Positions 16,974 to 20,962 of a stretch of 20,962 nt of DNA are shown here, piece after piece. The DNA comes from a virus (Duplodnaviria; Heunggongvirae; Uroviricota; Caudoviricetes): the IMG/VR virus record IMGVR_UViG_2671181136_000003. One strand, written 5' to 3'. Position 1 is the stretch's first letter. Every line of letters begins with the position of its first letter. A program made the position numbers and the translations under genes. The notes under the pieces are model-generated. The model was not told where the DNA came from, ran no database searches, and was given only the letters and a program-made list of their open reading frames with translations.

Positions 16974-17671
16974 TGCAGGATATTCACGAAGAAAGCCTGA
17001 ACGAGTCGGTTAAGTCAGAGCAGTCACCGCGGGTGGTGCTCTGGGAAATTGACCTGACGGTGCAGGGTGGTGAGCGGTATTTTTTCTGCAATGAGCTGAA
17101 TGAAAAAGGGGAGGCGGTTACCTGGCAGGGGCGGCAATATCAGGCATACCCGATTGACGGCAGTGGCTTTGAGATGAACGGGAAGGGCAGCAGTGCCCGC
17201 CCGTCGCTGACGGTGTCGAATCTGTTTGGTCTGGTCACCGGGATGGCGGAGGACCTGCAGAGCCTGGTGGGGGCCACGGTGGTCCGCCGCCGGGTGTATG
17301 CCCGTTTTCTGGATGCGGTGAATTTTGTGGCGGGCAATCCGGAAGCGGACCCGGAGCAGGAGCTGAGCGACCGCTGGGTGGTGGAGCAGATGTCGCAGCT
17401 GACAGCCATGACGGCCTCGTTTGTGCTGGCTACACCGACCGAGACGGACGGGGCGCTGTTTCCCGGTCGCATCATGCTGGCGAACACCTGTATGTGGGAT
17501 TACCGGGGAGATGAATGCGGGTATAACGGTCCTGCGGTGGCGGATGAGTTCGACAACCCCACCACGGATATCCGTAAGGACAGATGCAGCAAGTGCATGC
17601 GCGGGTGTGAACTGCGCAGGAATGTCGGCAATTTTGGCGGTTTCCTTTCCATTAATAAACTTTCGCAGTAA
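16973..17671 (+). CDS. L: Minor tail protein L
   Basis: ATG at 16973 overlapping the M stop. Near-identical in long stretches to remembered lambda gpL (VVLWEIDLT, GERYFFCNE, VTWQGRQYQ, MAEDLQSLVG, C-terminal NVGNFGGFLSINKLSQ). Confidence 0.95.
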   Translation: MQDIHEESLNESVKSEQSPRVVLWEIDLTVQGGERYFFCNELNEKGEAVTWQGRQYQAYPIDGSGFEMNGKGSSARPSLTVSNLFGLVTGMAEDLQSLVGATVVRRRVYARFLDAVNFVAGNPEADPEQELSDRWVVEQMSQLTAMTASFVLATPTETDGALFPGRIMLANTCMWDYRGDECGYNGPAVADEFDNPTTDIRKDRCSKCMRGCELRRNVGNFGGFLSINKLSQ

Positions 17672-17681
17672 ATCCCGGTTT

Positions 17682-18250
17682 ATGACACAGACTGAATCAG
17701 CGATTCTGGCGCATGCCCGGCGGTGTGCGCCTGCGGAGTCGTGCGGCTTCGTGATAAGCACGCCGGAGGGGGAGTGGTATATCCCTTGTGTGAATATTTC
17801 CGCAGAGCCGGAGGCGTATTTTCGTATCGCACCGGAAGACTGGCTGCGGGCAGAGATGCAGGGGGAGATTGTGGCGCTGGTCCACAGCCACCCCGGTGGT
17901 CTGCCCTGGCTGAGCGAGGCCGACCGGCGGCTGCAGATAAAAAGTGCACTGTCCTGGTGGCTGGTCTGCCGGGGGGAAATTCATAAATTCCGCTGTGTAC
18001 CACATCTGACAGGACGGCGCTTTGAGCACGGGGTGACGGACTGTTACACGCTGTTCCGGGATGCCTACCATCTGGCGGGAATTGATATGCCGGATTTTGA
18101 GCGTGAGGATGACTGGTGGCGCAACGGTCAGAACCTTTACCTGGACAATATGGCGGTCACCGGCTTTTACCGGGTGCCCCTGTCCTCTGCACAGGCGGGC
18201 GATATCCTGCTGTGCTGCTTTGGCGCATCGGTGGCCAATCATGCCGCCAT
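17682..18250 (+). CDS. K: Tail assembly protein K (NlpC/P60 plus JAB/MPN-like), copy 1, 3'-truncated by the N-run
   Basis: MTQTESAILAHARRCAPAESCGF ... HSHPGG ... very close to remembered lambda gpK; the ORF runs into the gap at 18251. Confidence 0.9.
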
Positions 18251-18273
18251 NNNNNNNNNNNNNNNNNNNNNNN
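18251..18273. other. Run of 23 N (assembly or scaffold gap)
   Basis: Literal n characters in the sequence; the flanks join mid-K to mid-L. Confidence 0.99.
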
Positions 18274-18855
18274 AATGAGCTGAATGAAAAAGGGGAGGCG
18301 GTCACCTGGCAGGGGCGGCAATATCAGGCATACCCGATTGACGGCAGTGGCTTTGAGATGAACGGGAAGGGCAGCAGTGCCCGCCCGTCGCTGACGGTGT
18401 CGAATCTGTTCGGTCTGGTCACCGGAATGGCGGAGGACCTGCAGAGCCTGGTGGGGGCCACGGTGGTCCGCCGCCGGGTGTATGCCCGTTTTCTGGATGC
18501 GGTGAATTTTGTGGCGGGCAATCCGGAAGCGGACCCGGAGCAGGAGCTGAGCGACCGCTGGGTGGTGGAGCAGATGTCAGAGCTGACGGCCATGACAGCC
18601 TTGTTTGTGCTGGCAACACCGACGGAGACGGACGGAGCGCTGTTTCCTGGTCGCATCATGCTGGCGAACACCTGTATGTGGGATTACCGGGGAGATGAAT
18701 GCGGGTATAACGGTCCTGCGGTGGCGGATGAGTTCGACAACCCCACCACGGATATCCGTAAGGACAGATGCAGCAAGTGCATGCGCGGGTGTGAACTGCG
18801 CAGGAATGTCGGCAATTTTGGCGGTTTCCTTTCCATTAATAAACTTTCGCAGTAA
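18274..18855 (+). CDS. L: Minor tail protein L, copy 2, 5'-truncated by the N-run (resumes at NELNEKGEAV)
   Basis: In-frame continuation to the same stop context as copy 1; a handful of nucleotide differences from copy 1 (for example Q to E in MSQLTAM / MSELTAM). Confidence 0.85.
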   Translation, partial: NELNEKGEAVTWQGRQYQAYPIDGSGFEMNGKGSSARPSLTVSNLFGLVTGMAEDLQSLVGATVVRRRVYARFLDAVNFVAGNPEADPEQELSDRWVVEQMSELTAMTALFVLATPTETDGALFPGRIMLANTCMWDYRGDECGYNGPAVADEFDNPTTDIRKDRCSKCMRGCELRRNVGNFGGFLSINKLSQ

Positions 18856-18865
18856 ATCCCGGTTT

Positions 18866-19609
18866 ATGACACAGACTGAATCAGCGATTCTGGCGCATGC
18901 CCGGCGGTGTGCGCCTGCGGAGTCGTGCGGCTTCGTGATAAGCACGCCGGAGGGGGAGTGGTATATCCCTTGTGTGAATATTTCCGCAGAGCCGGAGGCG
19001 TATTTTCGTATCGCACCGGAAGACTGGCTGCGGGCAGAGATGCAGGGGGAGATTGTGGCGCTGGTCCACAGCCACCCCGGTGGTCTGCCCTGGCTGAGCG
19101 AGGCCGACCGGCGGCTGCAGATAAAAAGTGCACTGTCCTGGTGGCTGGTCTGCCGGGGGGAAATTCATAAATTCCGCTGTGTACCACATCTGACAGGACG
19201 GCGCTTTGAGCACGGGGTGACGGACTGTTACACGCTGTTCCGGGATGCCTACCATCTGGCGGGAATTGATATGCCGGATTTTGAGCGTGAGGATGACTGG
19301 TGGCGCAACGGTCAGAACCTTTACCTGGACAATATGGCGGTCACCGGCTTTTACCGGGTGCCCCTGTCCTCTGCACAGGCGGGCGATATCCTGCTGTGCT
19401 GCTTTGGCGCATCGGTGGCCAATCATGCCGCCATATACTGCGGCAACGGTGAGCTGCTTCACCATCTGCCTGAACAACTGAGTAAACGGGAGAGGTATTC
19501 CGAAAAATGGCAACGACGAACGCATTCAGCCTGGCGTCACCGCCACTGGCACGTATCTGCCTTCACGGGGATTTACAACGATTTGGCCGCCGCCTCAGCC
19601 TGTATGTGA
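18866..19609 (+). CDS. K: Tail assembly protein K, copy 2 (complete, 247 aa)
   Basis: Same start context as copy 1; full-length match to remembered lambda gpK including the C-terminus (WRHRHWHVSAFTGIYNDL). Confidence 0.9.
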   Translation: MTQTESAILAHARRCAPAESCGFVISTPEGEWYIPCVNISAEPEAYFRIAPEDWLRAEMQGEIVALVHSHPGGLPWLSEADRRLQIKSALSWWLVCRGEIHKFRCVPHLTGRRFEHGVTDCYTLFRDAYHLAGIDMPDFEREDDWWRNGQNLYLDNMAVTGFYRVPLSSAQAGDILLCCFGASVANHAAIYCGNGELLHHLPEQLSKRERYSEKWQRRTHSAWRHRHWHVSAFTGIYNDLAAASACM

Positions 19610-20090
19610 ACACGGCAGCGGAAGCCATTCGTGCCCTGTCGATGCAGATGCCGGGATTCCGCCGTCAGATGAACGAAGGCTGGTACCAGATACGTATTCG
19701 CGGTGAGGACACGGCACCGGAGGCGGTGTACGCCCGTCTTCACGAACAGCTGGGTGAGGGAACGGTCATCCACATTGTGCCGCGACTGGCCGGGGCCGGA
19801 AAGGGTGGACTGCAGATTGTGCTGGGGGCGGCAGCCATCGTGGGCTCTTTCTTCACTGCCGGGGCATCAATGGCGTTATGGGGTTCAGCCCTGGCAGCCG
19901 GTGGTTTTTCTGCCACCACGATGCTGTTTTCACTTGGAGCCAGCATGATTCTGGGCGGTGTGGCCCAGATGCTGGCCCCGAAGGCAAAAACACCGGATTA
20001 CCGCGCAACGGATAACGGCAGACAGAACACGTACTTTTCCTCGCTGGATAACATGATTGCCCAGGGGAACCCGATGCCGGTGCCTTACGG
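19507..20090 (+). CDS. I: Tail assembly protein I, 3'-truncated by the second N-run
   Basis: Start overlaps the 3' end of K, as in lambda. Strong similarity to remembered lambda gpI (ARICLHGDLQRFGRR, GWYQIRI, VIHIVPR, FSLGASMILGGVAQMLAPKAKTPD, NTYFSSLDNM). Confidence 0.9.
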
Positions 20091-20111
20091 NNNNNNNNNN
20101 NNNNNNNNNNN
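20091..20111. other. Run of 21 N (assembly or scaffold gap)
   Basis: Literal n characters; the flanks join mid-I to mid-L. Confidence 0.99.
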
Positions 20112-20540
20112 ATGGCGGAGGACCTGCAGAGCCTGGTGGGGGCCACGGTGGTCCGCCGCCGGGTGTATGCCCGTTTTCTGGATGCGGTGAATTTTGTGGC
20201 GGGCAATCCGGAAGCGGACCCGGAGCAGGAGCTGAGCGACCGCTGGGTGGTGGAGCAGATGTCAGAGCTGACGGCCATGACGGCCTCGTTTGTGCTGGCA
20301 ACACCGACGGAGACGGACGGAGCGCTGTTTCCCGGTCGCATCATGCTGGCGAACACCTGTATGTGGGATTACCGGGGAGATGAATGCGGGTATAACGGTC
20401 CTGCGGTGGCGGATGAGTTCGATAAACCCACCACCGATATCCGTAAGGACAGATGCAGCAAGTGCATGCGCGGGTGTGAGATGCGCGGCATGGTGGCTAA
20501 TTTTGGCGGTTTCCTTTCCATTAATAAACTTTCGCAGTAA
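20112..20540 (+). CDS. L: Minor tail protein L, copy 3 fragment (divergent allele), 5'-truncated by the N-run
   Basis: Begins at the internal MAEDLQSLVG; differs from copies 1 and 2 at several residues (DEFDKPTTD, GCEMRGMVANFGG). Confidence 0.8.
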   Translation: MAEDLQSLVGATVVRRRVYARFLDAVNFVAGNPEADPEQELSDRWVVEQMSELTAMTASFVLATPTETDGALFPGRIMLANTCMWDYRGDECGYNGPAVADEFDKPTTDIRKDRCSKCMRGCEMRGMVANFGGFLSINKLSQ

Positions 20541-20545
20541 ATCCA

Positions 20546-20962
20546 ATGACACAGACAGAATCAGCGATTCTGGCGCATGCCCGGCGGTGTGTGCCTGCGG
20601 AGTCGTGCGGCTTCGTGGTGAGAACGCCGGAGGGGGAGCGGTATATCCCTTGTGTGAATATCTCTGCAGAGCCGGAGGCGTATTTTCGTATTGCACCGGA
20701 AGACTGGCTGCGGGCAGAGATGCAGGGGGAGATTGTGGCACTGGTCCACAGTCATCCCGGTGGTCTGCCCTGGCTGAGCGAGGCCGACCGGCGGCTGCAG
20801 ATAAAAAGTGCACTGTCCTGGTGGCTGGTCTGCCGGGGGGACATTCATAAATTCCGCTGTGTGCCACATCTGACAGGACGGCGCTTTGAGCACGGGGTGA
20901 CGGACTGTTACACGCTGTTCCGGGATGCCTACCATCTGGCGGGAATTGATATGCCGGATTTT
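20546..20962 (+). CDS. K: Tail assembly protein K, copy 3 (divergent allele), 3'-truncated by the window end
   Basis: ATG at 20546. The L-K intergenic spacer is 5 nt shorter than in copies 1 and 2. Translation MTQTESAILAHARRCVPAESCGFVVRTPEGERYIP... differs at several positions and runs open to the window end. Confidence 0.85.
   Translation, partial: MTQTESAILAHARRCVPAESCGFVVRTPEGERYIPCVNISAEPEAYFRIAPEDWLRAEMQGEIVALVHSHPGGLPWLSEADRRLQIKSALSWWLVCRGDIHKFRCVPHLTGRRFEHGVTDCYTLFRDAYHLAGIDMPDF

What the first reader, a model, noticed from the sequence alone, without database searches (positions are those of the whole stretch)
17090..20962. Three copies of the L-K tail-gene segment separated by N-runs: probable scaffolding of collapsed prophage repeats, not an established tandem duplication
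After K is cut by 23 N, the sequence restarts inside L (copy 2, nearly identical to copy 1 over about 1.16 kb), runs through K into I, is cut by 21 N, and restarts inside L again (copy 3). Copy 3 is clearly a different allele: several amino-acid changes and a 5-nt shorter L-K spacer. Every junction falls mid-gene. This is what contig ends from several lambdoid prophages with near-identical tail genes look like when joined by a scaffolder. The true gene order downstream of K (I, J, tail fibre) cannot be read from this window.
Basis: seen in the sequence. Interest (0 to 1): 0.5.

Follow-up and report, generated by a model that had tools for sequence, protein, structure and literature searches.

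The report
Scaffolding artefact in prophage tail genes
The apparent three copies of two phage tail genes are three short-read contigs from different but similar prophages, joined by runs of N in a draft E. coli-type scaffold; it is an ordinary assembly artefact, not a gene triplication.

Summary
N-runs at 18251-18273 and 20091-20111 split the window into segment A (1-18250), B (18274-20090) and C (20112-20962). B repeats A's L-K stretch at 98.97% identity over 1,161 bp. C repeats it at about 96.6-96.9%, with a 5-nt shorter L-K spacer.

The window is the whole of WGS record CYBD01000039.1 from draft assembly GCA_001285985.1. The interpretation as a scaffolding artefact is strongly supported:
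- The two hidden junctions differ (K nt 569 to L nt 118; I to L nt 271), and both fall mid-gene.
- All five internal segment ends abut a site that varies among 27 comparator alleles (P about 4e-5). This is the pattern expected of assembler breakpoints.
- Every comparator, including closed genomes and seven loci (six assembly contigs, one metagenome contig) with an identical tape-measure protein, reads L once; all that extend far enough then read K-I-J-Lom.
- Closed E. coli genomes carry this module at a median of 2-3 and up to 18 separate places.
- Neither junction occurs in any other public record.

Interest is low.

The parts
13397..16639 (+). Tape-measure gene (H-like, 1,080 aa) of the HK97-head/lambda-tail prophage carried by segment A
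   Evidence: Pfam TMP_3, Phage_HK97_TLTM and Tape_meas_lam_C. The identical protein occurs in 63 collection blocks, and every contig read that reaches past L has single-copy M-L-K-I-J.
16632..16973 (+). Minor tail protein M gene
   Evidence: Pfam Phage_min_tail, E = 3e-29.
16973..17671 (+). L copy 1, complete (232 aa). Its allele switches at 17395.
   Evidence: Pfam Phage_tail_L, E = 7e-93. There are no mismatches to sibling prophages anywhere in 16600-17394, then differences from 17395. The exact protein is present in 4 separate prophages of CP027555.1.
17243..17394 (.). 152-bp stretch identical in segments A, B and C. Segment A changes from the sibling (C-type) allele to another allele just after it.
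17682..18250 (+). K copy 1, cut after 189 codons plus 2 nt at the end of segment A
   Evidence: Pfam Prok-JAB. It is identical to K copy 2 over all 189 aa. The next column is polymorphic among comparators (T 23 / A 2).
18251..18273 (.). N-run 1 (23 N): scaffold gap joining K nt 569 to L nt 118
18274..18855 (+). L copy 2, 5'-truncated (starts at residue 40)
   Evidence: Pfam Phage_tail_L, profile positions 12-206. The column before its start is polymorphic (C 16 / T 11).
18866..19609 (+). K copy 2, complete (247 aa)
   Evidence: Pfam Prok-JAB and NLPC_P60. The exact protein occurs in 11 contigs, each with a single L-K-I.
19606..20090 (+). I, 3'-truncated at the end of segment B (an alternative upstream start lies at 19507)
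   Evidence: Pfam Lambda_tail_I. 19435-20090 matches E. coli ML35 exactly. The column after its end is polymorphic (T 15 / G 10).
20091..20111 (.). N-run 2 (21 N): scaffold gap joining mid-I to L nt 271
20112..20540 (+). L copy 3, 5'-truncated (starts at residue 91). This is the allele found in sibling prophages.
   Evidence: Pfam Phage_tail_L, profile positions 63-206. It is 99.4-99.9% identical to siblings L001-L003 and L005-L007, and identical to L008 over the 294 bp that contig covers. It starts one base after the A/B variant site 17242.
20546..20962 (+). K copy 3, cut at the scaffold end after 139 codons. The L-K spacer is 5 nt.
   Evidence: Pfam Prok-JAB. The 5-nt spacer matches the siblings.

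Best explanation
The three L-K copies are three separate short-read contigs: A (18,250 bp), B (1,817 bp) and C (851 bp). They come from different resident lambdoid prophages, or prophage alleles, of one draft E. coli-type genome. A scaffolder or gap-filler laid them end to end with short N-runs at the tail of scaffold CYBD01000039.1.

The likely sequence of events is as follows. The tail-tip module M-L-K-I is near-identical in several prophages of such genomes. Contig growth stops wherever reads from the copies disagree, that is, at sites that vary between copies. Ambiguous read pairs within the shared stretches (exact runs of 786, 170, 152, 101 and 99 bp) then link the fragments.

The real locus almost certainly reads H-M-L-K-I-J-Lom-tail fibre once. 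Segment C is the L-K allele that belongs downstream of A's H-M-L 5' part. A's last ~856 bp (17395-18250) carry another prophage's allele, closest to an ML35-type lambda-like prophage. That comes either from a chimeric join inside the 152-bp triple-identical stretch 17243-17394 (my estimate about 55%) or from a real recombinant (about 45%).

Shown: the anatomy, the record's identity, the single-copy order in all relatives, and the coincidence of breakpoints with variant sites. Inferred: which assembler steps produced it, and whether A is chimeric.
For: 1. The window is the complete 20,962-bp WGS record CYBD01000039.1 of draft assembly GCA_001285985.1. The N-runs are therefore scaffold gaps, and the repeats lie at the scaffold's end.
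2. The sequence on either side of each N-run is not collinear. Junction 1 joins K nt 569 to L nt 118 and junction 2 joins mid-I to L nt 271. The two junctions differ, both are mid-codon or mid-gene, and neither is read through.
3. All five internal segment ends abut a column that is polymorphic among 27 comparator L-K-I alleles, while only 13% of columns are polymorphic. Binomial P = 3.7e-5; with minor-allele count of at least 2 it is 4 of 5, P = 2.3e-4.
4. C starts exactly one base after an A/B variant site (17242).
5. Seven sibling loci (six assembly contigs and one metagenome contig) carry the identical 1,080-aa tape-measure protein, and closed genomes Z1322HEC0009, Z1322HEC0006 and ML35 were also examined. 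All read L once, and all that extend far enough read K-I-(sodC)-J-Lom-fibre once.
6. C is 99.4-99.9% identical to those siblings but only 96.6-96.9% to A and B. In 5641-17394, A has a single mismatch to siblings L002 and L003 (1-4 mismatches to the other four assembly siblings over the stretch each covers). It then has ~37 differences in 17395-17999.
7. The module is multi-copy in closed E. coli genomes: median 2-3 places and up to 18 places per genome. A's exact L protein sits in 4 distant prophages of CP027555.1 and 2 of CP077469.1.
8. Neither junction pattern, allowing a 0-30 nt gap, occurs in the genome or metagenome contig collections.
9. Published work states that the homogeneous lambdoid prophage content fragments short-read EHEC assemblies (PMC7175801, PMC10925052).
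Against: No reads, depth or pairing data are available, so physical linkage across the N-runs is not directly disproved. The gap sizes of 23 and 21 N look like estimates rather than a fixed placeholder, which means the scaffolder did have some pair support for adjacency. A and B share an exact 786-bp stretch present in both contigs. A pure de Bruijn unitig output would not duplicate such a stretch, so a contig-extension or gap-filling step has to be assumed. The 27 comparators are not independent of one another and come from other genomes.
Confidence: 0.93

Rival explanations
1. A real tandem partial triplication of L-K(-I) within one prophage, in which the N-runs are short unsequenced gaps.
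For: The scaffold as deposited places the copies in the same orientation, 21-23 nt apart. The scaffolder evidently found some linking pairs.
Against: The two junctions have different breakpoints, unlike a tandem array with one repeated novel joint. The copies differ by 1% and about 3.3% plus indels, and C is closer to prophages in other genomes (99.9%) than to its supposed neighbours. None of the 27 comparator loci or the closed genomes show it. Four scans of public collections found no junction match. All five ends lie at variant sites, P about 4e-5. It would also leave three truncated essential tail genes.
Confidence: 0.02
2. The alleles come from more than one strain (a mixed culture or contamination) rather than from several prophages of one genome. 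It would still be a scaffolding artefact.
For: The best closed-genome matches for A, B and C are in different strains: Z1322HEC0009 at 99.5%, ML35 at 98.7% and Z1322HEC0006 at 99.9%.
Against: The record belongs to an isolate assembly (a GCA accession). Single closed genomes routinely hold 3-18 copies of this module, including several with the identical L protein, so a mixture is not needed.
Confidence: 0.05
3. The N-runs mask bases within otherwise collinear sequence, so nothing is duplicated.
For: None beyond the presence of Ns.
Against: The flanks are out of register by more than 1 kb in gene coordinates. After 23 N the sequence is at L nt 118, not K nt 593. After 21 N it is at L nt 271, not further along I.
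Confidence: 0

Closest known systems
Short-read fragmentation and mis-scaffolding of homologous lambdoid prophages in EHEC/EPEC-type E. coli genomes
   Same: The same genes (tail module), the same cause (near-identical multi-copy prophage segments), and the same outcome (contig breaks inside prophages and small phage contigs). This is described in PMC7175801 and PMC10925052.
   Different: Here the fragments were joined into one scaffold with short N-runs, which imitates a tandem triplication. The leading contig also appears to switch allele within a 152-bp shared stretch.
Bacteriophage lambda tail-tip assembly module M-L-K-I-J
   Same: Pfam families Phage_min_tail, Phage_tail_L, Prok-JAB plus NlpC/P60 (K) and Lambda_tail_I, in lambda order. 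J, Lom and tail fibre follow in all relatives.
   Different: In segment A the tail-tip module is attached to an HK97-type head and a 1,080-aa HK97-type tape measure rather than lambda's. In this window the module is interrupted by scaffold gaps.

Membership tests
Scaffold-gap assembly artefact (paralogous contigs joined by Ns) | The sequence is a draft scaffold record and each junction is an N-run. | tested here: met
   The window equals the whole of CYBD01000039.1, 20,962 bp, from GCA_001285985.1. The N-runs are at 18251-18273 and 20091-20111.
Scaffold-gap assembly artefact (paralogous contigs joined by Ns) | The flanks of each gap overlap or duplicate one another instead of continuing collinearly. 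| tested here: met
   B re-starts 1,161 bp back relative to the end of A. C lies wholly inside the range covered by A and B.
Scaffold-gap assembly artefact (paralogous contigs joined by Ns) | Contig ends coincide with sites where the repeat copies differ. | tested here: met
   5 of 5 ends abut polymorphic columns against a 13% background, P = 3.7e-5.
Scaffold-gap assembly artefact (paralogous contigs joined by Ns) | The repeated element is multi-copy and dispersed in finished genomes of the same kind. | tested here: met
   Median 2-3 places and up to 18 places per closed genome. There are four separate prophages with the identical L protein in CP027555.1.
Scaffold-gap assembly artefact (paralogous contigs joined by Ns) | Raised read depth over the repeat and inconsistent read pairs across the gaps. 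| not testable with these tools
   No reads are available.
True tandem (segmental) duplication | The same novel joint recurs between successive units. | tested here: not met
   Joint 1 is K nt 569 to L nt 118. Joint 2 is mid-I to L nt 271.
True tandem (segmental) duplication | Continuous sequence is read across the joints. | tested here: not met
   Both joints consist of Ns only. No match was found elsewhere.
True tandem (segmental) duplication | The copies are each other's closest relatives. | tested here: not met
   C is 99.9% identical to prophages in other genomes but 96.6-96.9% to A and B.
Lambda-type tail-tip module (M, L, K, I) | The characteristic domains are present in the lambda gene order. 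| tested here: met
   Pfam hits above the gathering cut-offs for M, L, K and I. The order is confirmed in relatives.

The most novel reading that the evidence does not exclude
The scaffold is literally correct: a defective prophage carries a real, heterogeneous partial triplication of L-K(-I), built by successive illegitimate or gene-conversion events between resident prophages, with the joints lying in the short unsequenced gaps.
Probability: 0.02. Interest if true: 0.25.

Novelty: not a real feature. Interest (0 to 1): 0.04.

Why it matters
It matters only for data hygiene. Gene callers read through the N-runs and produce spurious truncated or fused L, K and I proteins; for example, the 198-, 204-, 194-, 142- and 139-aa products called on this record. 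Those products then enter protein databases. Counts of prophage tail genes, and any inferred 'duplications', from such scaffolds are unreliable. The check used here, asking whether segment ends abut sites that vary between copies, is a cheap sequence-only way to flag such artefacts when reads are not at hand. No new biology follows.

Tried and rejected
1. The first Pfam call failed because I used a wrong K frame. I corrected the coordinates.
2. A full Smith-Waterman alignment of the 18-kb segment A against the loci timed out. I replaced it with BLAST.
3. I looked for the source project in the literature with 'CYBD01' and found 0 papers. The assembler and scaffolder are therefore unknown, and the proposed extension or gap-filling step stays an inference.
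4. I scanned genome contigs and metagenome contigs for both junctions, allowing a 0-30 nt gap, and found 0 matches in all four scans. One search shows that the pattern does match the window itself. This is weak negative evidence, because the scans need exact flanks.
5. I looked for a closed genome holding all three alleles. No single strain matched all of them: A's best match was 99.5% (Z1322HEC0009), B's 98.7% (ML35) and C's 99.9% (Z1322HEC0006). The 'map to three prophages of the same strain' test therefore could not be completed.
6. I rejected the masked-bases reading because the flanks are out of register.
7. I considered that A's private alleles at 17395-17452 were errors. I rejected this because the same 91-bp stretch is exact in E. 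coli ML35 and is found at 99% or more in 377 closed records.
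Full report
**Observation**

The window has exactly two N-runs, 18251-18273 (23 N) and 20091-20111 (21 N). They divide it into segment A (1-18250), B (18274-20090; 1,817 bp) and C (20112-20962; 851 bp).

B aligns without gaps to A 17090-18250: 1,161 bp, 12 mismatches, 98.97% identity. All 12 mismatches lie in 17119-17464, and the last 786 bp are identical. C aligns to A 17243-18098 at 96.6% and to B 18427-19282 at 96.9%. 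It has a compensating 1-nt indel pair near the end of L and a 5-nt shorter L-K spacer, 5 nt against 10 nt.

Pfam gives the gene content:
- Segment A: tape measure (13397-16639), M (16632-16973), L (16973-17671) and K cut after 189 codons (17682-18250).
- Segment B: L from residue 40 (18274-18855), complete K (18866-19609) and truncated I (to 20090).
- Segment C: L from residue 91 (20112-20540) and K cut after 139 codons (20546-20962).

Copy 3 differs from copies 1 and 2 by 6 residues in L and 5 in K. K copies 1 and 2 are identical.

**What the record is**

An exact-protein look-up of the tape-measure protein and of K copy 2 returned the window itself as NCBI WGS record CYBD01000039.1. Its contig length is 20,962 bp, which is the whole window, and it belongs to draft assembly GCA_001285985.1. 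The N-runs are therefore scaffold gaps, and B and C are two small pieces attached at the scaffold's end.

The gene calls stored for that record include 198-, 204-, 194-, 142- and 139-aa products that run into or out of the N-runs. These are spurious proteins.

**Relatives**

Seven other loci (six assembly contigs and one JGI metagenome contig) encode the identical 1,080-aa tape-measure protein. All read H-M-L once, and all that extend far enough read K-I-J-Lom-tail fibre once. Three closed genomes also show one L-K-I followed by J (in one with sodC before it), Lom and tail-fibre genes: Z1322HEC0009 (best match to A, 99.5%), Z1322HEC0006 (best match to C, 99.9%) and ML35 (best match to B, 98.7%). 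The eleven contigs carrying the exact K copy-2 protein likewise have a single L-K-I.

In 5,426 closed E. coli genomes the module occurs at a median of 2-3 and up to 18 places per genome. A's exact L protein sits in four widely separated prophages of CP027555.1 and two of CP077469.1, each followed by K-I-J. So dispersed paralogous copies are the rule, and I found no tandem copy.

**Breakpoint test**

I mapped 27 comparator L-K-I alleles onto one reference and asked whether the base just outside each internal segment end varies among them. All five do:
- before the start of B: C 16 / T 11
- before the start of C: G 22 / A 5
- after the end of A: T 23 / A 2
- after the end of C: G 25 / C 1
- after the end of B: T 15 / G 10

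The immediate neighbours of these columns are invariant. Only 13% of columns are polymorphic, so the binomial P is 3.7e-5. Requiring a minor-allele count of at least 2 gives 4 of 5 and P = 2.3e-4. C also begins exactly one base after the A/B variant site 17242.

Contig growth that stops where reads from repeat copies disagree predicts exactly this. A biological rearrangement does not.

**Junction geometry**

Junction 1 joins K nt 569 to L nt 118. Junction 2 joins mid-I to L nt 271. A tandem array made by unequal exchange would repeat one novel joint and begin with identical copies. Here the joints differ, and the copies differ by 1% and about 3.3%. C is also closer to prophages in other genomes than to its supposed neighbours.

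Neither junction, with a 0-30 nt spacer, occurs in the genome or metagenome contig collections. One search shows that the pattern does match the window itself.

**A refinement: segment A changes allele**

In 5641-17394, A has a single mismatch to siblings L002 and L003 (the other assembly siblings have 1-4 over the stretch each covers). It then has ~37 differences in 17395-17999, at exactly the sites where A differs from C. C matches those siblings at 99.4-99.9% and shares their 5-nt L-K spacer.

The switch follows a 152-bp stretch (17243-17394) that is identical in A, B and C. A's alleles at 17395-17452 are private within the window. They are exact in E. coli ML35 and common in closed genomes. 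From 17465 onward A is identical to B, and B's 3' end (19435-20090) is also exact in ML35. No closed genome has A 17000-18250 at more than 99.1%.

The simplest reading is that C is the true continuation of A's prophage, and that A's last ~856 bp were assembled from another, ML35-like prophage. A real recombinant prophage cannot be excluded without reads. I put chimera or consensus at about 55% and recombinant at about 45%.

**Mechanism (inferred)**

Several resident lambdoid prophages share the tail-tip module, with exact runs of 786, 170, 152, 101 and 99 bp. Short reads cannot phase these. Contigs, or contig extensions, end at variant sites, and ambiguous read pairs link the fragments. The scaffolder cannot merge the imperfect overlaps, so it writes short estimated gaps. 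That A and B both contain the same 786 bp implies an extension or repeat-resolution step rather than bare unitigs. Which software did this is unknown, because no paper mentions the accession.

Published work describes the general problem for EHEC genomes (PMC7175801, PMC10925052).

**Rivals**

- Real triplication: about 2%. It is contradicted by the points above but not formally excluded without reads.
- Mixed strains instead of multiple prophages: about 5%. This would still be an artefact.
- Masked collinear bases: refuted by the register of the flanks.

**Comparison with the known, and verdict**

The genes are ordinary members of the lambda M-L-K-I tail-tip module, joined here to an HK97-type head and tape measure. 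The 'triplication' is a known kind of short-read assembly and scaffolding artefact. It is not a real feature of the genome, and interest is about 0.04.

The decisive tests are read depth and read pairs over 17090-20962, PCR or long reads across both gaps, and linkage of sequence upstream of 17089 to the alleles at 17395-17452.

Noticed in passing
window 17243-18250: Segment A has no mismatches to sibling prophages from 16600 up to 17394. It then carries a different L-3'/K allele, with ~37 differences by 17999. The switch comes right after a 152-bp stretch identical in A, B and C. The tail is closest to an E. coli ML35-type lambda-like prophage. It is either a chimeric contig or a real recombinant.
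   Followed up: partly
window 7837-10421: PHROG 2271 'portal protein' (859 profile positions) is matched by two ORFs. 7837-9201 covers profile 1-451 and 9198-10421 covers profile 455-859; they overlap by ATGA and the second is in the -1 frame. The closed genome NZ_CP148570 annotates the same stretch as a single 'frameshifted' portal pseudogene. The split is also called in sibling L001, so it may be a conserved two-gene arrangement rather than decay.
   Followed up: no
window 9423-9955: A 162-bp (54-codon) tandem repeat of 3.3 copies with 91% matches lies inside ORF 9198-10421, the C-terminal 'portal-family' half. Siblings differ from the window mostly within this repeat.
   Followed up: no
window 1-3966: The scaffold starts mid-endolysin (1-506). 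An Rz-like spanin follows (988-1488), then two further spanin-like ORFs (1670-1939, 2033-2374) and an HNH endonuclease (2748-3113) just upstream of the small terminase (3403-3966). This is the usual HK97-type packaging layout.
   Followed up: partly
L017 10984-13599 and 2139-4555; L001 20208-22695; L002 1-2158: IS66-family elements are inserted at different points of otherwise near-identical sibling prophages: between the tail completion and major tail genes, next to the terminase, and downstream of Lom. In the closed genome Z1322HEC0009 the portal, tape-measure and J genes are annotated as frameshifted. These prophages are decaying in different ways.
   Followed up: no
L009 7513-8040; L018 10945-11472: A Cu/Zn superoxide dismutase gene (sodC) sits on the opposite strand between I and J in the lambda-like comparators, but not in the HK97-head type carried by segment A.
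   Followed up: no
L004 14286-17566 (= window 17682-20962): The public gene calls for this record include 198-, 204-, 194-, 142- and 139-aa products that run into or start at the N-runs. These are artefactual truncated or fused L, K and I proteins now present in protein collections.
   Followed up: partly
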